DNA of 64,000 nucleotides from Flavobacteriales bacterium (GTDB lineage: Bacteria; Bacteroidota; Bacteroidia; Flavobacteriales; JANQLC01): positions 81,574 through 145,573 of the forward strand of contig JANQLC010000007.1 in NCBI GenBank assembly GCA_028280815.1, read 5' to 3'. The notes beneath the pieces are model-generated. The model was not told the DNA's origin. It was given only the letters and a program-made list of their open reading frames with translations, and did no database searches. The translations under genes were made by a program, and so were the position numbers. How positions within the stretch are numbered: the stretch's first letter is position 1; each line of letters starts with the position of its first letter. Shown here in pieces: positions 17,273 to 51,560 of this stretch.

Positions 17273-17843
17273 CTATGGTGATTTGATTTTTAAAGCGCGG
17301 GTTTGGTATTTGCCTTTGACCGTGGTGAATGCTGTGCAGCTGGTGTGCCAAGGGTCCGCTCACCCGTCCCCAGTAAATTTTGCGATACATGCGGCAGGTG
17401 GTAGACCGCCTTTGTAGCGATGCGGTAGGTGAATGAGGTGGTGCTCAAAATTTTTTCTTCCATGGGCTTTGCTCAGGTGCAAATGTATGTATAACTCATA
17501 TATCAAGCGTACGGGGAAAAGAAGGCCTTTGGTTTTTGCACTGTTAGTAATCACGATGTTCGCATGGTTTGCCCGATAAATACATCCGGGTTTATCGCGT
17601 AACGAATTTTACGACTCTCTGCTATCCTCGCATAGGGGTTTTCGCCAAAGCGCTTGTTTCACCGTTCTTATTCCATTACTCGGCTTCTTCAGCGATATAC
17701 CTCGCCATCATACCTTTTCGGTTCTTCTTAACGGATTTTTTAAATTTTGGACGTCTTACCTTTCCAAAATCAGGCGATTCCTCTTTCAACCCTTACGTTA
17801 AAAAAACATTAACTACATCTGCCAGACCCTTAAAATCGAAAAT

Positions 17844-17978
17844 ATGAGAAAGACGTTGTTTTTTCTGATCGCAGTCGTTCTCAGCCTTACCACCGGTTGC
17901 AATGAAGATCGAGGAATCGTATCTCAATCGGATACCGGGATAAAACCGGCCGGCTCAATCCCGGAAGCGATAAAATAG
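17844..17978 (+). CDS. small putative lipoprotein (44 aa), possibly the 5' remnant of a disrupted longer gene
   Basis: MRKTLFFLIAVVLSLTTGC has a signal peptide plus lipobox. The TAG at 17976-17978 is in frame with ORF 17982-18185. Too short for the ORF track. Confidence 0.3.
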   Translation: MRKTLFFLIAVVLSLTTGCNEDRGIVSQSDTGIKPAGSIPEAIK

Positions 17979-18334
17979 CCGATGCCATCACCTATCATCA
18001 ATACCATTTTTAGGGGCGATAGCCCAAATACCGAAGAGGCCGGGCAGTCAAGCGGTCTGGAAGGGAGGAAAATCTCCAAAGGGGATAGAGCCGATATCAT
18101 CGATATAAAGGATCGTAAAAAAGAGCACATCTTAAAATGGGTCTGCTTTAAACCCCGTGGTTACGCCTTGATCAGCGCGCTTTGAAAGGCATCCCGAATC
18201 CGGCGGTCTCGTTCTATTCGGAAGGAAAGTTCGATCGAAACCATCCCAACTCCGGGATGGAATATTTTTTATTGTTCAACCCTTCATTGTTTTTTACAAT
18301 ACATTTTAAGTCTGATGCGTATTCGTTTCTCGTT

Positions 18335-20850
18335 TGGTCGCTTGAAAAGGAGAACTCGTTTTGGCGCTCGCCTGTAGGTCAGTAAAAAGCATTTTTTATC
18401 GTCTGACGGTTTAAAGAAGCGGACTTGTCCTTTTGTTTCTGCACTGTGTTTCAGTTGCAAAATGCCGACTGCGGCCTATAATTTGCACGGGCCTGAATCG
18501 CCGGCTCTTATTTTTTTGCTCTTATCCCTGTGGTCAGCTGCGCTGGCCCCGCTACGCAGGTTTGGTAAGAGATGGGCATCTAAGGGGTCAACCCCTTGAT
18601 TCTTTATTGTATGTTCTTCTCAATTGGGTAGGGCCTGAAAGGCTGGTGTTGTTTTCTCGTCTTTGTCCTTTTGTGCGCGTTTGGAGGCTTGGGTCTTGTT
18701 TTCTCGCTGCTGTTTGGCCTTTATAAAACGGCTTGTTTTGCGTTGGGGAGTTCCCGCGTTTTTTGCTTTGTTTCGCCGGTGTTTTGACGAACTGTTTTGT
18801 CGGTTGCCTTGCCGGGTTATTGGGTTGTTGTGTTGCGGTGGGCTGACTGGTTTGAGCTGGCTTGGATTGAGCAGCTGGGTTTGGTTTAGATTGGTTTACA
18901 CAAGGTGTTTAAAAGGCGTTTTTGACAGGGGAAATGAAGGCGGCTCGGTGGTGGCTATGGGTGGGTTGATTTGTTCAGTGGGCAGTGTATGGGTCTATCG
19001 GTTGAATTGGGTGGCTTGGATTGGGTTGTTGGGTTTTGTTGTCGATTGTGTTTGTGGGGCTGGCGAATTGTTAGCTCGGTTGGTTGCCTGACTTTGGTTT
19101 GATTGCTCAGGTGCTGGTTTGTCTTCTTGGTTTTTCTTTTGTGTTGGCTTGATTTCCACCCTTTGGTTTTGTTCTCTTGGGCTTGTTTAAGGGTTTGGGG
19201 CTGTTCTTCCGTTTCTGTTTGTCAGTTTAAAAGGGTTTTTGTCCTCAACCTCTTGAAAAGGGAGGCTTGCCTTTTTGGCTTTGTCGTTTGGGGCGTTTGG
19301 TTGGTTGAATTGGGGTGCGGTGTCGTTGTATTGGCTCGGTTGGGTTGGCACAAAGTGTTTGAAAGGTGTTTTTGCCATTGGGAAAAGGCGGGCCCGTCGG
19401 CGGCTTCGGGTCGGGACTTTTTTATGCTAAGCGGTTTTGAGTCAGCGGCGCTTTCGTATTGATAAAGGTTTGCATTTCACTGGCTTGCTGGGTTTGGGTT
19501 GGTTGAGTTGGGTTAGTCGAATTGCTCTATTGGTTTAGTGGGTTGGTCGGGTGGTGGTTGGTTGACTGGCTTGACTTGGTTGGCTTGGGTTGAGTGGGTT
19601 TGTCGGGTTGGATTGTTTGAGTTGATTGACTCGTTGGGCGTAGTGGGTGCGGTTCGATTGGATTACGTCGGTGCGGTTGGCTTGGATGGGTTACAGTGGA
19701 CTGCGCTCGGTTGGTTTGTTGTGGTTCGTTTGGGTTTGTTTCGGCGTGTTGCGTCGATGTGTTCGTTGGGGTTGGGTGATGGTCTTGTGATGCGGCGGTT
19801 GGATTGGGTTGTGATGCAGGGCGTTGCGTTTGTTTCGTTTGTTTTTTTACCATCCTTGAAAGAAATAAACTACTGCTGTTTTGTATGCTTGTGCTGAGTT
19901 GCTTAGCCCCTACTGGGTTGTTGCGTTGCGGTGGATTGGCTGGCTTGGATTGTCGTAGTGGGTCGGTTTGGGCTAGCCGGCTTGGATGCGCTGATCGATT
20001 GCTTCAGTAGCTTGGTATGGCTGGTTTGTCAGTGTGATTCATCGGGTTGGACTGGGTTGATTTGGATTGGCTCGGTGGATTGGTTTAGTGGATTGGGTTG
20101 CTTCGCACGGGTTGGATGGGTTGTGGTGGTGTCTTTGTGTTGATCGATTGTATTCTTCCTCTTCGATTCCTTTGGTATGGGTTTTTTCTGTGGTCGATAT
20201 AGGTGGATTTTAGACTTCTCGTTTTTTGTCCCTTCTCCTGCAGTTGGTTTTTTTGCGTTTGGCTTTCCGCTGATTGGCTTGGGTGGTTTTGGGCTGGATG
20301 GGCTTGTTTGATGCGTTGTTGCGTTGCTGCATGGCGGTGAGTCGTCGCATTGATTGTGTCGGATTGTTTGATAGGCTTTGAAAGAAGTATGACCCTTGCT
20401 GTTTCGGGTGCTTGGTCTCTCTTGGTTTTGTCGGGTGGGCTGGATTGGCTCGTCGGGCGTAGGGGGGTCGTTTGGATTGGGTTAGGTGTGTGCGATTGGG
20501 TTGGATGGTTTGCGGTTGGTCGGCTCGTTTTCTCGGTTTGGCTCTTTTGTGGTGGCTTGAAGCAGGCGGTTTGTTTTCTCCCTTTTGTGCGCGTTTGAAA
20601 ATTCGCAGCCCTTTCCCCTTTGGCCATTTAAAGAGCGGGGATTATTTTTTGCAAAGGCGTATTGTCTTTCTGGTTTTTCCCTTTTGCGGGCCAAAGCGGG
20701 TGTTCTCGTCTTTGATCGCTGGATTGGGCTTTTCGTCTGAGATGTGTTCTCAGTGCGCTTGGGGTCGAAGGCCTGTCGCCCAATCGGTCTGTTGGAGCTT
20801 TTCGGCTGTCTTTGAAAACATCGGTGTAGCGGTCGAAGTGAGGCTCCAAT
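18335..20850 (+). repeat. G+T-rich non-coding composite repeat block, locus 2 (largest)
   Basis: 2.5 kb without a credible gene. The two lines I counted (19561-19620 and 19741-19800) are 83% and 82% G+T. Contains GGNTTGG simple repeats, GTTTGAAAAG-type units and the conserved box GTGTTT(G/A)AAAGG(C/T)GTTTTTG at 18903 and 19354. Confidence 0.75.
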
Positions 20851-20852
20851 GG

Positions 20853-21941
20853 CTATTTTGTCCCGCCCTGTAGCATCAGGTAAGCCTTGAGAAAGGGGTC
20901 GAGCTCACCGTTCATCACCGCCTCTACCTCAGGGGTTTCTACACCCGTTCGCACATCTTTGACGAGTTTGTAGGGGTGCATGACGTAATTTCGGATCTGG
21001 GAACCCCACTCTATTTTTTTCTTGCTGGACTCGATTTCACTCTGTTTGGCGCGTTTCTTTTCCAATTCGATTTCGTATAGGCGAGAGCGCAGCAATTGCA
21101 TGGCTTTTGCTTTGTTTTCCAATTGCGAGCGCGTTTCGGAATTCTCTATGACGATGCCGGTAGGCCGGTGCTTCAGGCGTACGGCTGTTTCGATTTTATT
21201 GACCGCTTGCCCGCCGGCGCCGCTCGAACGCATGGTTTCCCATTCGACATCGGAGGCGGGAATTTCGATTTCAATCGCATCGTCCACCAAGGGGTAAACA
21301 TATACGGAGGCAAAAGAGGTGTGCCGCTTGGCATTGGCGTCAAAAGGGGAGATACGCACCAGGCGGTGTACACCATTTTCGCCCTTCAGATAGCCAAATG
21401 CATAAGCGCCGGAAAATTCTAAGGTAACGGTTTTTACGCCGGCTACCTCGCCGGCTTGGTAGTTGAGTTCTCTGGTTCTATAGCCGTGCTTTTCGGCGTA
21501 CATCGCGTACATGCGCATGAGCATGGAAGCCCAATCGCAGCTCTCCGTTCCGCCGGCTCCAGCGGTTATTTGAAGCACGGCATCCATCGCATCTGCTTCA
21601 TCTGAAAGCATATTTTTGAACTCCAAGCGCTCCAAGCCTTTTATCGTCTTTTGATACTGTACTTCCACTTCGGCCTCCGCCGCTTCTCCTGCCTTTAAAA
21701 AATCGAAGAGCAGCTCCAAATCCACAAAGTCTGCGACCCGACTCTCGTAATCTGTGATCCAGTTCTTCTCGAGTTTCATCTCCTTCATCACCCTTTGGGC
21801 TGCCTTCGGGTCATCCCAAAAACCGGGCCTGGCCGCGAGCTGTTCCGATTCCGCAACCGCCGCTTTTTTCTCCTCGATTTTGAGGTGTCGCTTCAGCTCG
21901 GTAATGCGTTGACCCACTGCGCTTAACTGTTCTGCCGTCAT
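20853..21941 (-). CDS. prfB: peptide chain release factor 2
   Basis: Contains the SPF motif (RISPFDA) and the GGQ motif ([10 protein letters not shown]). The start is set at ATG 21941 ([20 protein letters not shown]), giving 363 codons including the stop. The frame is continuous, with no programmed +1 frameshift site. Confidence 0.93.
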
Positions 21942-22003
21942 GATTTCGTGCGGTTCAGCTTGTAAATATACGGTGTATTTCAAATGGGTTGGGGATACAC
22001 TGT

Positions 22004-22435
22004 CTATCGCAATTGGATGCCATATCGATAACGGATAAACTGGAAGTAGTTGTAGAGCTTGTAGTTTAACTTTAGACCGTATTCTATATCCGGGCGGTAG
22101 TCGATATAGGTGCTGTAGAAATCCGGGTCGTAGTGCATGGGGTCCTCGTGTCGCCGATTCCATTCGGCCACATAGAATAGGTTTTGCGTTTTGTAAAAGC
22201 TGTTGCTGTGATACCAATCGGGACGGGCGATGGACTTGAGATAGGTTTCATAACTCGGGTCTAAGACGATTAAGTCGTAGCGGTTCCCATCGCTTTTCAC
22301 CAGCTGTAGGGTATCGCTTTTCACCGGTTTTTCAGGTATTTTGACGGCTGCCTGACTTTTGGAAATCGCGTGTATCGTATGGCAGGCGTGGGTCAGCAAG
22401 GCGCTGAGGCTTAGTATGAGAATCACCTTTTTCAT
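22004..22435 (-). CDS. secreted/lipoprotein of unknown function (resembles DUF6146-type Bacteroidota proteins)
   Basis: A signal peptide ([18 protein letters not shown]) followed by [14 protein letters not shown]...YVAEWNRR...YNYFQF, recalled as a conserved Bacteroidota family. Confidence 0.65.
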
Positions 22436-48314: not shown

Positions 48315-48644
48315 ATGCTTGCCATGAAAAGAGGTGTTTTAATGGCAGTGCTAAGCGCGGGAATCTTGGCTGTGTTTTCGTTTAGAGGGGTAAAAAACAC
48401 CGGTGTGTCGCCCCGCCTGGCAGAGGTTGGAGCCTGTTCGATAGGGTCCGGTGACTGTGATAACTTTACGGAAACCTGCAGGACATCCTCGGATAAGTTT
48501 ACGGAATGGCGTCGGACCTGGAGTAAGTATTCTCCTACCACTATCCCCACTGCTAAGAAGACAGAATCGAGTAAAGAGGTGGATAAAGCGAAAAAAGAAG
48601 CGGAAAAGGTGAGTGAGATTAGCCATGCATTAGAGCGGTTTTGA
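48315..48644 (+). CDS. small secreted/membrane-anchored Cys-containing peptide (109 aa), unknown family
   Basis: An N-terminal hydrophobic segment, a core with three Cys (GACSIGSGDCDNFTETC), then DKFTEWRRTW and a K/E-rich tail ending SEISHALERF. The coding frame is supported by protein-level similarity to the decayed copy at 49055-49331. Confidence 0.5.
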   Translation: MLAMKRGVLMAVLSAGILAVFSFRGVKNTGVSPRLAEVGACSIGSGDCDNFTETCRTSSDKFTEWRRTWSKYSPTTIPTAKKTESSKEVDKAKKEAEKVSEISHALERF

Positions 48645-49054
48645 TCCAGTAGGCATCTTTTTAAAGGCGAGAAATATATTTATGCCTGCCCAGGCCTGCT
48701 ATTCTACCCGTTTTGCGACCAATCCGATTGATCGGTCTTACTCCGTGTGTATCGGAAACCACATCGGCTACAGCTTTTGCGAAATGAACCCAGTTGCTTC
48801 ATTCAAAGATTGATGAATACGAGAAAAAATATAAGGCCGAAAAGGGCAAAGACGAGATAAAGGAATCCTTTTTTTAGTCCAAAAAGCCGGCTTGGTGAAA
48901 CGGTTAAAGAGAATGTCACAAGAGGCTAATAAGGTGTTGGTCAATCGGTCTTTTGTGGCATACAGATCTGAGCTAATTATATTGCCCATTATGGATGCTT
49001 TTCAAAACCTTTTTTTGGTTTATTGTTGAATTACATAATTCAAATATACCTGTG

Positions 49055-49331
49055 GTGAAAAAGTACTTTTAATCGGCGTGCTCGGCCTGGGAATCTCAAT
49101 CTTGGCTTCATTTAGAAACGTAAAAACAACGATGTGGTGCCCACTCTGACAAAGGTCTACGCCTATTCGCTAGGCTTTGGTGTATTTGAAGAATCTTATC
49201 ACGTGACACCGGATAAATTTGTGAGTTGGCATAGGCGGTGGGTTGCGTATGCGGATTGTCCGGGGCCGCGTAAAAAATTGGAAGAGGAAGCAAATGCGAG
49301 CGAGATCAGCCGGGCATTAAAGCCGCTTTAA
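49055..49331 (+). pseudogene. decayed paralogue of the 48315-48644 peptide gene (two frameshifts, all Cys lost)
   Basis: Three frames joined by hand give MKK / VLLIGVLGLGISILASFRNVKTTM / VVPTLTKVYAYSLGFGVFEESYHVTPDKFVSWHRRW...ASEISRALKPL. This aligns with the upstream peptide; C to Y substitutions occupy two of the Cys positions. Confidence 0.45.
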
Positions 49332-49365
49332 TGACATCTCTTTTAAAGCCTGAAAGTATACACTT

Positions 49366-49866
49366 ATGCTAGCCAAAGCCCACTACTTGATCCATTTTGG
49401 CGTCATTTTTCTGGTCTCTCTATCCGCTGTGCTGAATTCTTATTTGATGCATAAAAAAATCAAGGCTGGAAACCTATCCGCGCTGAATCACTTCATCGAG
49501 AGAAGCGTTGTCGATAATCCGGTTTATCACGCCTATTCCATATTTACGGGAACCAATAACGGATACGGCTTTTACGGGATTAACGTAGCCACCTATAAGT
49601 ATTTTAGCGTCGAACTATACGACAGGGATAAAAAATGCATTGCGAAGACGCACACATTTGGGTTTAAAAAACAGAACAATCTAGCTCGATTTGAAGTTTT
49701 GGCCTCGAGAATCGCGAATTATATCGCGGATAACGAGGAATTTCCCAAAGAAGGAGATAAAGAATTACTGAAGGCGAGAAAGCTGTACGTCAACGAAATA
49801 TTCAAGCACATCGGCTTGTACGAAAAAGAGGTGGGAATTTATAAAAGCCTTGCGCTTAGCTATTAG
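49366..49866 (+). CDS. N-terminally membrane-anchored protein of unknown function (166 aa)
   Basis: One N-terminal TM helix followed by a soluble domain (NNGYGFYGINVATYKYF). It overlaps or abuts the HTTM gene, in the same position that SdpA occupies next to SdpB in sdpABC-type loci. The similarity to SdpA itself is not established. Confidence 0.55.
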   Translation: MLAKAHYLIHFGVIFLVSLSAVLNSYLMHKKIKAGNLSALNHFIERSVVDNPVYHAYSIFTGTNNGYGFYGINVATYKYFSVELYDRDKKCIAKTHTFGFKKQNNLARFEVLASRIANYIADNEEFPKEGDKELLKARKLYVNEIFKHIGLYEKEVGIYKSLALSY

Positions 49867-50699
49867 ATTCAATGCGCCGAGTCATCAAATGGGCTATTTC
49901 AGCGCCATCGCATGCTTTAGAATCGCTGTTGCCACCTTAGTCTTAATCGATTTCTGTTGCGTTTTTTACGAATTAAAAATCTTTGCCTCCGATCAGGCCA
50001 TCTTACCGTTGGGGCTGGGCCTTATTCAAACCGAGTACCACACCCTGTTGAGTCCGCTCTATACTTTTATGACGGATCACAATCTCAGTATTACGGTTTT
50101 TATGACCGCGGTTTCCATATTGTACCTGTTGGCTTTGGTCTTTTGTATTTTGGGTTTTCACACGCGAAAATCCTTCTTCACCGCCTTGATCTTACAATTG
50201 CTGATATTCCGATCCATCCCGAATTTCAATTACGGTTACGATAGTTTTATCACCATGTCTTTCTTCTATTGCCTGTTGTTTCCCGTTGGGACGGAATACG
50301 CGCTGGACAGTTATCGCAAGGGCGAGAATAGATCGAGGCGAAAAATGCCATCCAGGTATTTTTCATTACCCTTTTACTTAAAAACCCATTTGTGCATCGT
50401 TTATTTCGTATCGGGCCTCTCGAAAGTCTTGGATCCGAATTGGTGGGATGGAAATGCGATTTGGCGTGCCTATGACGATCTGAGTCCTGCTCTTTACGTA
50501 CCGCCTTTCCTTTTGGCTACTCTGTCTTTATCGGTCGTCTCTATCGAGCTGCTCTATTCCTTTTTGGTCTGTACGAAATTCCGCAAAGTTTACGGTAGTC
50601 GATATGGCTCTCATCCATTTGGGCATCGGGATATTTTTGGGGCTGTCTTCCTTTGCAGCAGTTGTGTATAATCCGAAAAACGAAATCAGGTCAGTTTGA
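49850..50699 (+). pseudogene. HTTM-domain (SdpB / vitamin K-dependent gamma-carboxylase-like) polytopic membrane protein, frameshifted near the 3' end
   Basis: FRIAVATLVLIDF..., GFHTRKSFF, IVYFVSGLSKVLDPNWWDGNAIW are HTTM-like. After about 50585-50595 the expected continuation TVVDMALIHLGIGIFLGLSSFAAVV is in the next frame and ends at TGA 50697-50699. The true start may be ATG 49889. Confidence 0.7.
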
Positions 50700-50948
50700 A
50701 AGACAAAATCAGATTTTTTTGAGAAACACACCACTCATCAATAAAAAGCCCCATATCGGAGCTCGATTTAGTGAGTCCGATTCGCTTTAAAGCCTTTATT
50801 TATAGGAGATAGCCCGTTTATGACATTTATACGACGGTTAATGATAAAAGACATGTGCGTACCGTCTCAGAATGACGATTAAATGACGGTTTTATCGGAT
50901 TTCGTTTTTGTTTGGGATTCCATCCTTATTCTCCTGTATTGCCTGTAA

Positions 50949-51560
50949 TTACTGGCGTTTCCGTCCATTTTCACCTTTCTTCAATTCAATGGAATTCGTT
51001 TTACCCCCCTTACTTCTATGTCGATACCGATTAACAGCCTGACGGGCTTGAAACATTTGGTAATTCTGACGAGTAGGCTGACCGCTTCGGCCAGCAAAGC
51101 GGTTATCAACGGACTCAAACCCTTTTTGGGACATCGGTTACAATTGATCGGGCGACAAACCGTAGGAAAGGGCAAAGCGAGTACGGTATTGGTAGATAGG
51201 CCCGAAAGCGATTATTTATACCTTACTGAAGTCAAAATTCCGCTGAGCGAGAAATTTGGTATGCAGCTCATCTTTGCCAGAGGTTTCAATTCGGAGGGAA
51301 CCCCTATCCCTCGGGACGGCTTTCTCCCAGATTTTGAGATGGATGAAGTAGAAGGCTTAATAAGGGAGAAAAAGCCGCTCGGCGATCCCGAAGAGCGATT
51401 GTTGCGTGCAGCCTTAGACCTGATAGCGGGGAAGCGTCCTGTATTGCCGGCGAATTCTGAGTCGGCTGATCGTCTTTTCGGCACGCTGATATACTCGAAT
51501 ATAATGGAAGAGAACACTTTTGGAAAAAACCCTTATAGACAGGCGGTTTCTAAAGTCTAA
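50949..51560 (+). pseudogene. S41 (C-terminal processing) peptidase, C-terminal fragment only
   Basis: HLVILTSRLTASASKAVINGLKPF...IGRQTVGKG matches the Ser/Lys dyad region of S41 peptidases. The upstream frame closes at TAA 50946-50948, and no N-terminal/PDZ part or signal peptide is present. Confidence 0.65.

What the first reader, a model, noticed from the sequence alone, without database searches (positions are those of the whole stretch)
48315..50699. Cys-containing small peptide genes upstream of a membrane-anchored protein and an HTTM (SdpB / gamma-carboxylase-like) membrane protein
Seen: four same-strand genes lie in a row.
- A 109-aa peptide has an N-terminal hydrophobic segment, a 3-Cys core (GACSIGSGDCDNFTETC), DKFTEWRRTW, and a Glu/Lys-rich tail ending SEISHALERF.
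- A decayed paralogue follows at 49055-49331.
- Next is a 166-aa protein with a single N-terminal TM helix.
- Last is an HTTM-domain polytopic protein overlapping the 166-aa gene. It has one frameshift near 50590.

Established knowledge:
- HTTM domains are homologous to the vitamin K-dependent gamma-glutamyl carboxylase.
- In B. subtilis the HTTM-family protein SdpB, together with SdpA, is required to mature the SdpC toxic peptide.

Inference: this is an sdpABC-like peptide maturation or export locus with an unrelated, Bacteroidota-specific precursor. The Glu-rich tail raises the possibility of carboxylase-type modification. The precursor family and the 166-aa partner appear uncharacterised.
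Basis: partly seen in the sequence, partly recalled or inferred. Interest (0 to 1): 0.66.

Follow-up and report, generated by a model that had tools for sequence, protein, structure and literature searches.

The report
Decayed peptide–HTTM enzyme gene cassette
This is a broken-down copy of a rare, undescribed Flavobacteriia gene cassette that pairs a small exported protein with a membrane enzyme related to the vitamin K-dependent carboxylase; the cassette family is worth studying, but the copy in this window is very probably dead.

Summary
The four ORFs exist as described. Their homologues are rare: 18-24 clusters among 5.8 billion proteins. They always lie together.

Intact relatives carry a larger cassette. 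It has one to three small exported peptides, a GLPGLI protein, a ~196-aa single-pass protein, a ~290-aa polytopic protein and a ~760-870-aa outer-membrane protein. A DCC1-like oxidoreductase is sometimes added.

The polytopic protein fails Pfam HTTM and the curated SdpB cut-off. It is still a remote HTTM relative by fold, because only human GGCX matches. A broad profile hits GGCX at E 9e-7, and the GGCX K218/D263 catalytic pair is kept as Lys/Glu.

The 196-aa partner is not SdpA or DUF5819 by sequence. It belongs to an unmodelled HTTM-partner superfamily, one member of which is naturally fused to an HTTM domain.

The window copy is a relic:
- the GLPGLI gene is mostly deleted;
- the second peptide has two frameshifts;
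- the partner lacks 31 codons;
- the HTTM gene has a +1 frameshift and a 32-nt deletion;
- the outer-membrane gene is gone.

The Cys residues and the Glu/Lys tail are lineage-specific, so they do not support gamma-carboxylation. An sdpABC-like analogy is reasonable, but membership is not shown and the chemistry is unknown.

The parts
48324..48644 (+). PEP-b, the only intact gene of the cassette. It is a small exported-protein precursor: a 109-aa ORF from 48315, or 106 aa from the conserved MK start at 48324. It has a signal-like N-terminus ending FSFR, the core NFTETCRTSSDKFTEWRRTW, a lineage-specific E/K-rich insert, and the C-terminus ALERF.
   Evidence: ORF and translation. It is 64% identical to the L001 100-aa peptide. 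Family alignment A4. Profile search found 24 clusters. dN/dS is 0.275.
48664..48807 (+). Short scrap resembling the 5' end and the TGxxxGYxF motif of a P196-type gene. It is probably a duplication scar. The evidence is weak.
   Evidence: tblastn E 1e-3. A comparable 41-nt scrap lies in L001.
48719..48927 (+). Relic of a GLPGLI-family gene. Only about the last 80 codons remain, in two reading frames. About 680 nt of the gene is deleted relative to L001.
   Evidence: tblastn with the L001 GLPGLI proteins gives E 6e-9 and 3e-4. blastn shows the gap. The intact homologues meet TIGR01200.
49055..49331 (+). PEP-c pseudogene, a paralogue of PEP-b. It has a GTG start and 1-nt deletions at 49066/67 and 49121/22. 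Its C-terminal residue is Leu instead of the family's Phe/Tyr.
   Evidence: Three-frame translation. DNA alignment with L001 and L031. tblastn.
49366..49866 (+). P196, the single-pass HTTM-partner protein. Here it is 166 aa because 31 codons are deleted in frame at about 49825. The lost segment includes nearly invariant residues (Y163, L167, Y168, P172, I175, N182, K185 in P0019 numbering).
   Evidence: Alignment A2. blastn junction at 49824/49825. 19 homologue clusters. Superfamily of 121 representatives.
49850..50699 (+). HTTM-like polytopic membrane gene, now a pseudogene. An extra G at 50588 shifts the frame, and 32 nt are deleted at 50665/66, which removes the conserved WN..AFYKDF end. 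The Lys (SGLSK) and Glu (SIELLY) that align with GGCX K218 and D263 are still encoded.
   Evidence: Foldseek matches GGCX. Profile against GGCX. Weak TIGR04033 hit.
50681..51020 (.). Deletion junction. About 340 nt with no similarity to any related locus replace about 3.7 kb of L001. The lost stretch held the 843-aa CarboxypepD_reg outer-membrane gene and the 5' two-thirds of the S41 peptidase gene.
   Evidence: blastn of the window against L001. No hits for the junction in any locus. Two Logan contigs identical to the window end at 50695.
51018..51560 (+). 3' fragment of an S41/PDZ peptidase gene: 180 aa against 470 aa in L001. It is a neighbour cut by the same deletion and is probably not part of the cassette.
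   Evidence: Pfam Peptidase_S41 hit covering the C-terminal part only. tblastn matches residues 300-465. L001 gene table. The gene is absent from other cassettes.

Best explanation
The window holds an eroded copy of a rare Flavobacteriia cassette.

In intact relatives the cassette reads: one to three small precursor genes (PEP, about 85 aa), then a GLPGLI protein, then a ~196-aa single-pass protein (P196), then a ~290-aa HTTM-like polytopic protein, then a ~760-870-aa outer-membrane protein with a CarboxypepD_reg domain. A DCC1-like thiol-disulfide oxidoreductase sometimes follows.

Shown:
- The gene order recurs.
- The polytopic protein has the fold of the GGCX membrane (epoxidase) domain. 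It keeps the residues that align with GGCX K218 and D263.
- P196 belongs to a cross-phylum family that sits next to HTTM genes and is once fused to one.
- PEP is a conserved, selected coding gene.
- The window copy carries at least six inactivating lesions.

Inferred mechanism:
- PEP is exported by Sec to the periplasm.
- An inner-membrane HTTM-P196 complex modifies or processes it there. P196 plays the part of the missing GGCX lumenal domain. The complex probably uses menaquinol and O2 as GGCX uses vitamin K hydroquinone. The DCC1-like protein, where present, serves the redox cycle.
- The product is then handed to the outer-membrane barrel and GLPGLI pair for release or surface display.

This is analogous to SdpAB acting on SdpC. 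In this genome the enzyme pair and the barrel are broken, so the system is very probably non-functional and PEP-b is an orphan.
For: Cassette and linkage:
- Gene tables of L001, L003 and L005.
- The map of 19 species-representative loci shows 10 Flavobacteriia loci carrying the cassette genes (9 contiguous, L010 interrupted by inserted genes).
- Blind look-ups of four weak peptide hits each gave PEP-~205aa-~300aa-CarboxypepD_reg-GLPGLI, and three of the four also gave a complete DCC1-like gene (L026's is a 75-aa sub-threshold fragment).

HTTM identity:
- The top 15 Foldseek hits are all human GGCX (E 1e-4 to 3e-3, TMq 0.56-0.62). The next hit has E 0.4.
- Profile A5 hits GGCX residues 112-316 at E 9e-7. 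The invariant Lys, Glu and His align with K218, D263 and H287. The roles of K218 and D263 are given in PMC13486548.
- A Chitinophagaceae relative passes Pfam HTTM, and a Planctomycete relative is fused to DCC1-like.

Partner:
- hhalign of the P196 superfamily against partners upstream of HTTM genes in other phyla gives probability 96.7% and E 4e-10.
- P0110 is a natural HTTM+P196 fusion.
- A preprint predicts an analogous single-pass DUF5819 protein taking the place of the GGCX lumenal domain.

Peptide:
- Conserved signal-like N-terminus, the TFPDKFTxWRxxW core and a terminal Phe/Tyr.
- dN/dS 0.28.

Decay:
-.
- The lesions recur in other assemblies, at 100% and 98% identity.

The SdpAB/SdpC precedent is described in PMC6818787.
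Against: - There is no direct evidence that PEP is the substrate.
- No residue typical of carboxylation is invariant in PEP. Glu is not, and the Asp of DKF is replaced by Gly or Ser in two copies.
- HTTM-partner pairs occur without PEP in other phyla, so the pair does not need this peptide.
- GGCX N290 is Ile here, and the GGCX carboxylase segment 374-418 has no counterpart.
- Quinone use is assumed, not shown.
- P196 has no detectable similarity to SdpA, DUF5819 or any solved fold.
- The P196 model is only moderate (pLDDT 74), and its most conserved motif is poorly modelled.
- The roles of the outer-membrane protein and GLPGLI are unknown.
- The in-frame 31-codon deletion in P196 is presumed, not proven, to be inactivating.
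Confidence: 0.55

Rival explanations
1. PEP is not the substrate. It is a small periplasmic or membrane-anchored accessory protein, such as an adaptor, plug or regulator for the outer-membrane barrel and GLPGLI pair, or a third subunit of the enzyme. The HTTM-P196 pair would then act on something else, such as a lipid, a quinone or an envelope protein.
For: - HTTM-partner pairs exist without PEP in Chitinophagia and Planctomycetota.
- PEP has no invariant Glu, Asp or Cys.
- In L001, PEP genes alternate with GLPGLI genes (PEP-GLPGLI-PEP-GLPGLI-PEP). That suggests PEP pairs with GLPGLI rather than with the enzyme.
- Viral HTTM homologues with the same Lys/Glu/Ile pattern are proposed to act on lipids.
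Against: - PEP lies directly upstream of P196 in most cassettes. It is the only component specific to this clade.
- In other phyla a different exported protein occupies the same upstream position (family c10 in L013, L014 and L016). That fits a pattern of a substrate encoded next to the enzyme.
- The sdpABC and linaridin precedents link HTTM proteins to peptides.
Confidence: 0.25
2. The locus is a working sdpABC-type toxin locus. The three-Cys core forms disulfides, and the Glu-rich tail is gamma-carboxylated by the HTTM protein.
For: - The only NCBIfam hit of the polytopic protein is SdpB.
- The GGCX catalytic Lys is conserved.
- Bacteriocin-type neighbours (a C39 ABC transporter and LytTR regulators) lie near some cassettes.
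Against: - The window copy has frameshifts and deletions in the HTTM, P196 and second peptide genes, and it lacks the outer-membrane gene.
- Cys is absent from at least 10 family members, and the E/K-rich insert exists only in the window and in L001 PEP-b.
- The protein ends at about residue 300, so it has no counterpart of GGCX residues 374-418, which are needed for carboxylation.
- No SdpA, SdpC, SdpI or SdpR homologue was detected.
- PEP has no hydrophobic C-terminal toxin-like segment of the kind SdpC has.
Confidence: 0.08
3. The window locus still works. The 31-codon deletion is tolerated. The HTTM frameshift is bypassed or the two halves act as split proteins. The outer-membrane component is supplied from elsewhere in the genome.
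For: - dN/dS of 0.20 for the window P196 and HTTM genes against L001 shows no obvious relaxation of selection.
- PEP-b is intact.
- The catalytic Lys and Glu codons are retained.
Against: - Six independent lesions affect five genes, including invariant or nearly invariant residues and the conserved C-terminus of the HTTM protein.
- No second copy of any cassette gene lies in the 64-kb window.
- The low dN/dS is expected if inactivation is recent relative to roughly 0.6 synonymous substitutions per site.
Confidence: 0.07

Closest known systems
Bacillus subtilis sdpABC and its paralogue yitPOM
   Same: - The operon logic matches: a signal-peptide-bearing precursor is encoded beside a polytopic HTTM-type membrane protein and a small partner, and both are needed to mature the precursor (PMC6818787).
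- SdpB (TIGR04033) is the only NCBIfam family hit by all 17 members of the polytopic family.
   Different: - Scores are 20-42 bits against a cut-off of 178.
- The partner does not hit SdpA, and the peptide does not hit SdpC.
- The precursor is 85-109 aa rather than 203 aa. It lacks a hydrophobic toxin segment and lies upstream rather than downstream.
- No sdpRI-type immunity or regulation genes are present.
- The host is Gram-negative, and the cassette adds an outer-membrane barrel, GLPGLI and sometimes DCC1-like genes.
[quoted passage not shown]
   Same: - The fold matches: Foldseek finds only GGCX.
- A profile hit covers GGCX residues 112-316.
- Lys, Glu and His align with K218, D263 and H287. 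Ile sits at the N290 position, as in the viral enzymes.
   Different: - The protein is about 290 aa and has no lumenal domain and no counterpart of residues 374-418, which are needed for Glu carboxylation.
- Pfam HTTM does not hit this clade.
- The cofactor and the reaction are untested.
DUF5819 plus HTTM-DCC1 predicted complex, and the fused bacterial carboxylase MloH (bioRxiv 10.64898/2026.08.19.745780)
   Same: - A single-pass protein of about 190 aa is encoded next to an HTTM protein and is predicted to occupy the place of the GGCX lumenal domain.
- A DCC1-like domain is associated.
- Fused versions exist: P0110 in this family and MloH in the preprint.
   Different: - P196 and 79 distant relatives give no DUF5819 hit.
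- DCC1-like is a separate gene, and a complete copy is present in only four of the cassettes seen (L007, L025, L027, L028); L026 has a 75-aa fragment.
- MloH acts on a polyketide-peptide intermediate, not on a ribosomal protein.
HTTM-domain proteins of linaridin (RiPP) gene clusters
   Same: An HTTM membrane protein is conserved beside a ribosomal peptide precursor, and its role is unknown (PMC9927463).
   Different: - The other linaridin enzymes are absent.
- The precursor is exported by a signal-like N-terminus rather than carrying a linaridin leader.
- The phylum and the envelope type are different.
GLPGLI family (TIGR01200 / PF09697) proteins of Bacteroidota
   Same: The cassette GLPGLI proteins meet the curated cut-off: 112-132 bits against 50.
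   Different: - The function of the family is unknown.
- In the four papers found, the word occurs only as an annotation.
- Only an 80-codon relic remains in the window.

Membership tests
HTTM domain (Pfam PF05090) | Hit to the Pfam HMM at or above the gathering score of 27.7 bits | tested here: not met
   There is no hit at E<=10 for the frameshift-corrected window protein. None of the 17 family members hits at E<=1. A distant relative (L013, 29% identical) does pass, at 30.2 bits.
HTTM / GGCX superfamily (remote homology) | Sequence-profile and fold similarity to the GGCX membrane domain | tested here: met
   Profile A5 against PDB finds GGCX at E 9e-7 over residues 112-316. Foldseek with the AF2 model (pLDDT 76, pTM 0.74) returns GGCX entries as its top 15 hits, at E 1e-4 to 3e-3. 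The next hit has E 0.4.
HTTM / GGCX superfamily (remote homology) | Catalytic pair equivalent to GGCX K218 and D263 | tested here: met
   An invariant Lys aligns with K218 and an invariant Glu with D263. D263E retains activity according to PMC13486548. N290 is Ile here.
GGCX proper (gamma-glutamyl carboxylase) | Lumenal domain and residues 374-418, which are required for Glu carboxylation | tested here: not met
   The family proteins end at about residue 290-300, straight after the HTTM core. The requirement is stated in PMC13486548.
SdpB family (NCBIfam TIGR04033) | Score at or above the curated cut-off of 178.4 bits | tested here: not met
   The window protein scores 20.6 bits. All 17 members hit, but the best E-value is only 2.6e-9. 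Distant relatives score 26-42 bits.
SdpA family (TIGR04034 / Pfam SdpA) | HMM hit for the small partner protein | tested here: not met
   There is no hit at E<=10 for the window 166-aa ORF or for the 16 members of A2. None of 79 distant superfamily members hits. No profile-profile comparison against SdpA was possible.
SdpC family (TIGR04032) | HMM hit for the precursor, plus a C-terminal hydrophobic toxin segment | tested here: not met
   The peptides have no NCBIfam or Pfam hit. The mature part is hydrophilic.
DUF5819 (HTTM partner) | Pfam HMM hit | tested here: not met
   There is no hit for the window ORF at E<=1 or for 79 superfamily members at E<=0.01. The architecture is analogous: an N-terminal transmembrane helix plus a domain of about 160 aa, encoded next to an HTTM gene.
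GLPGLI family (TIGR01200) | Score at or above 50 bits | tested here: met
   The L025 and L005 cassette proteins score 111.8 and 131.5 bits. The window keeps only a C-terminal relic.
RiPP precursor and maturase system | Enzyme-dependent covalent modification or leader removal of the peptide | not testable with these tools
   This needs mass spectrometry in a strain with an intact cassette.

The most novel reading that the evidence does not exclude
The intact cassette encodes the first bacterial ribosomal-protein substrate of a GGCX-type, menaquinol- and O2-dependent HTTM enzyme. A split enzyme, made of the HTTM core and the P196 'lumenal' subunit, modifies a conserved small exported protein in the periplasm of Flavobacteriia. 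A dedicated outer-membrane barrel and GLPGLI pair then releases the product.
Probability: 0.25. Interest if true: 0.8.

Novelty: new variant of a known kind. Interest (0 to 1): 0.5.

Why it matters
The vitamin K-dependent carboxylase is well understood in animals. Most bacterial HTTM proteins, by contrast, have no known substrate or reaction, and how SdpAB mature SdpC is still unknown.

This cassette offers a compact, testable case with four useful properties:
- a conserved small exported protein encoded beside an HTTM enzyme that keeps the Lys/acid catalytic pair;
- a previously unmodelled partner family (121 representative clusters, one natural fusion) that probably stands in for the GGCX lumenal domain;
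- a link to two other Bacteroidota families of unknown function, GLPGLI and the CarboxypepD_reg outer-membrane proteins;
- cultured strains with intact cassettes, namely Riemerella columbina and Ascidiimonas aurantiaca.

The window's own copy mainly shows that the cassette is dispensable and decays in some lineages.

Tried and rejected
- Pfam and NCBIfam scans of the window ORFs gave no HTTM, SdpA, SdpC or DUF5819 hit. The only hit was a weak one to SdpB.
- A narrow family profile (A1) against PDB sequences found nothing at E<=10. The broader profile A5 was needed.
- hhalign of the narrow P196 alignment against partners from other phyla was inconclusive, at E 0.1. It became significant only with the wider superfamily alignment.
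- Foldseek with the P196 model against PDB gave no significant match. The best hits were uricase-type folds at E 0.1, which I rejected as noise.
- The P196 superfamily profile against PDB gave only a chance FFAP match in LeoA, at E 1.5.
- The idea that the S41/PDZ peptidase is part of the system, recognising the C-terminal Phe/Tyr, was rejected. It neighbours the cassette only in L001 and the window.
- The idea that the DCC1-like protein makes the peptide's disulfides was rejected. It co-occurs with Cys-free peptides.
- Sequencing error as the cause of the frameshifts was rejected. Two Logan assemblies are identical to the window, and a 98%-identical Tara scaffold shares the peptide-paralogue frameshifts and the GLPGLI deletion.
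- Rfam and the promoter/terminator scans of 47.8-52.1 kb found nothing above chance.
- PDB sequence searches with the outer-membrane protein and with GLPGLI gave only weak hints: the N-terminal extension of a TonB-dependent receptor at E 0.31, and PNGase F-II at E 0.004.
- My UvrA dN/dS control was misaligned and is not used.
- I could not name the window organism, because exact look-ups returned no names.
Full report
**1. Observation**

The four + strand ORFs exist as described.
- 48315-48644 encodes 109 aa with the quoted motifs.
- 49134-49331 is the C-terminal part of a paralogue.
- 49366-49866 encodes 166 aa.
- 49850-50671 encodes a polytopic protein.

Three-frame translation shows that the paralogue starts at GTG 49055 and changes frame twice. 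The polytopic reading continues in another frame to 50699.

Alignment with an orthologous locus pins down the lesions.
- The paralogue has 1-nt deletions at 49066/67 and 49121/22.
- The polytopic gene has an extra G at 50588 and a 32-nt deletion at 50665/66.

The region has a lower G+C content (44-45%) than its flanks (50-53%).

**2. Rarity and linkage of homologues**

Among 5.8 billion proteins I found 18 clusters for the polytopic protein, 19 for the 166-aa protein and 24 for the peptide. Most share the same contigs.

Gene tables of intact loci show a larger cassette: PEP (85-100 aa), GLPGLI/Porph_ging (about 255 aa), a 196-aa protein, a roughly 290-aa polytopic protein, and a 760-870-aa protein. 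The only Pfam domain of the large protein is an N-terminal CarboxypepD_reg domain.

A scan of 185,579 species-representative genomes gave 19 loci. ORF clustering showed the cassette genes (PEP, GLPGLI, the 196-aa and polytopic genes, plus the outer-membrane gene, truncated in L012) in 10 Flavobacteriia loci. These include Riemerella columbina, Ascidiimonas aurantiaca, Galbibacter, Winogradskyella and Psychroflexus.

As an independent linkage test, I looked up four weak hits found with the peptide profile alone. All four lie directly upstream of genes of about 205 aa, about 300 aa and about 855 aa (CarboxypepD_reg), followed by GLPGLI. Three are also followed by a 122-aa DCC1-like thiol-disulfide oxidoreductase; L026 has only a 75-aa fragment of that gene.

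**3. The window copy is a relic**

L001 is syntenic with the window: UvrA lies upstream, and an S41 peptidase and SusD lie downstream. blastn and tblastn against L001 and the protein alignments show the following.
- The GLPGLI gene is reduced to about 80 C-terminal codons at 48719-48927.
- The second peptide is frameshifted twice.
- The 166-aa ORF is the 196-aa gene minus 31 codons at about 49825, including nearly invariant residues.
- The polytopic gene is frameshifted and has lost its conserved C-terminus.
- About 3.7 kb is replaced by about 340 unrelated bases (50681-51020). The lost stretch carried the 843-aa outer-membrane gene and the 5' two-thirds of the S41 peptidase gene.

These are not errors of one assembly. 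Two Logan contigs are 100% identical to the window. A 98%-identical Tara scaffold shares the GLPGLI deletion and both peptide frameshifts.

dN/dS against L001 is 0.20-0.28, similar to intact-intact pairs at 0.13-0.28. The genes therefore evolved as coding genes, and the decay is recent. No second copy of any cassette gene lies in the window.

**4. The polytopic protein**

Pfam HTTM does not hit it or any of its 17 relatives. All 17 hit NCBIfam SdpB, but far below the cut-off: the best E-value is 2.6e-9, and the window protein scores 20.6 bits against 178.4.

An AF2 model of P0001 (pLDDT 76, pTM 0.74) matches only human GGCX structures in the PDB. The top 15 hits have E 1e-4 to 3e-3 and TMq 0.56-0.62, and the next hit has E 0.4.

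A profile that includes distant relatives hits GGCX residues 112-316 at E 9e-7. In that alignment the invariant Lys, Glu and His fall on K218, D263 and H287, and Ile falls on N290.

According to PMC13486548:
- K218 deprotonates vitamin K hydroquinone with the help of D263.
- D263E keeps partial activity.
- Truncated viral 'epoxidase' homologues also have Glu and Ile at these positions.
- Residues 374-418, which are needed for carboxylation, are absent from those truncated forms, as they are here.

A Chitinophagaceae relative passes Pfam HTTM, and a Planctomycete relative is fused to a DCC1-like domain.

Conclusion: the protein is a remote member of the HTTM superfamily with a plausible catalytic pair. 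It is not a curated SdpB and not a GGCX-type carboxylase.

**5. The 196-aa partner**

It has no Pfam or NCBIfam hit, and specifically none to SdpA or DUF5819. Its AF2 model is moderate (pLDDT 74) and has no PDB fold match.

An exhaustive profile search of 1.84 billion representatives found 121 relatives, with the consensus YxxYTGxxTGYGFFAPNV. None of 79 distant members hits any relevant family.

This superfamily is homologous to the single-pass proteins encoded immediately upstream of HTTM genes in Chitinophagia and Planctomycetota. hhalign gives probability 96.7% and E 4e-10. The narrower comparison had been inconclusive.

One representative, P0110 (517 aa), is a natural fusion. An HTTM-like domain (residues 6-304, E 2.5e-74) is followed by a basic linker, a transmembrane helix and the P196 domain.

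A 2026 preprint predicts the same arrangement for DUF5819 with an HTTM-DCC1 protein. In that model the small protein sits where the GGCX lumenal domain is. The preprint also notes the fused bacterial carboxylase MloH.

I infer that P196 is the extracytoplasmic subunit of a split HTTM enzyme.

**6. The peptide**

Ten close members share MKK, a hydrophobic stretch ending L(F/Y)SF(R/K), a variable segment, the core NFxxSxxTFPDKFTxWRxxW, and a C-terminus L(E/D)x(F/Y). The invariant positions are M1, K2, S19, F20, F48, F59 and L103.

A more divergent group (L010-L012, L018, L025-L028) keeps the signal-like N-terminus and a terminal Phe or Tyr.

Cys is absent from at least ten members. The E/K-rich insert occurs only in the window and in its L001 orthologue. 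DCC1-like genes accompany Cys-free peptides, so they are unlikely to serve peptide disulfides.

**7. Mechanism**

Shown: the recurrent gene order, the HTTM fold and catalytic pair, the partner family and its fusion, and purifying selection on the peptide.

Inferred:
- PEP is exported by Sec.
- The HTTM-P196 complex modifies or processes it at the outer face of the inner membrane. The complex uses menaquinol and O2 by analogy with GGCX.
- The outer-membrane barrel and GLPGLI pair then handle the product.

This works like SdpAB acting on SdpC (PMC6818787). It also resembles the HTTM proteins of linaridin clusters (PMC9927463). It fails the membership tests for SdpA, SdpB and SdpC.

The main rival is that PEP is an accessory of the barrel and GLPGLI pair and that the enzyme acts on another substrate. 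Two observations favour it: PEP-less HTTM-partner pairs occur in other phyla, and PEP alternates with GLPGLI in L001.

The chemistry is unknown. The present evidence cannot distinguish carboxylation, oxidation, epimerisation and processing.

**8. Novelty and verdict**

I found no paper that describes this cassette. 'GLPGLI' occurs in four papers, only as an annotation, and HTTM-peptide links are limited to the Sdp system and linaridins.

The cassette is a new variant of a known kind, namely an HTTM enzyme, a partner and a neighbouring exported peptide. It has two unmodelled families and an unexpected outer-membrane module.

The specific locus in the window is a pseudogenised remnant, which lowers its own value. 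The family it points to is a good experimental entry to bacterial HTTM function. I score interest at 0.5.

Noticed in passing
window 17300-20850: About 3.5 kb has no ORF of 200 aa or more on either strand. The + strand shows a strong G and T excess (GC skew 0.33 and AT skew -0.43 at 18-20 kb). A degenerate 14/28-nt tandem repeat lies at 19494-19624. There is no Rfam match.
   Followed up: partly
window 48664-48807; L001 2696-2736: Short scraps of a P196-type gene lie between a peptide gene and the GLPGLI gene. An example is NPIDRSYSVCIGNHIGYSF against NPVYHAYSIFTGTNNGYGF. This suggests that the tandem peptide units arose by duplicating a peptide gene together with the 5' end of P196.
   Followed up: partly
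window 50695 (ends of L029 and L030): Two Logan contigs are 100% identical to the window, and both stop at 50695, right at the large-deletion junction. This could reflect strain heterogeneity or a repeat at that point.
   Followed up: no
L025 8615-10309; L027 496-2002; L028 319-903: Some intact cassettes have bacteriocin-style or regulatory neighbours. L025 has small ORFs followed by a Peptidase_C39 ABC transporter. L025 and L027 have response regulators, and L027 also has a LytTR protein. L028 has a cNMP-binding regulator.
   Followed up: no
L013 2572-3468, L014 3119-3907, L016 6236 onward: In Chitinophagia and Saprospiraceae, the position upstream of the partner-HTTM pair is occupied by a conserved 260-300-aa exported protein (family c10; the L014 copy has a lipoprotein-like N-terminus) with no Pfam or NCBIfam hit. 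It may be a different substrate for the same enzyme type.
   Followed up: partly
window 20853-22217 (- strand): This ORF looks like peptide chain release factor 2. It has an unusually long N-terminal extension in the mechanical ORF call, and the usual programmed frameshift may be present. I did not examine it.
   Followed up: no
all PEP and PEP2 peptides (L001-L028): Every intact peptide ends in Phe or Tyr as its last residue (...LERF, LDKF, LEKY, LDNY). The window's pseudogene copy ends in Leu. The meaning of this terminal aromatic residue is unknown.
   Followed up: partly
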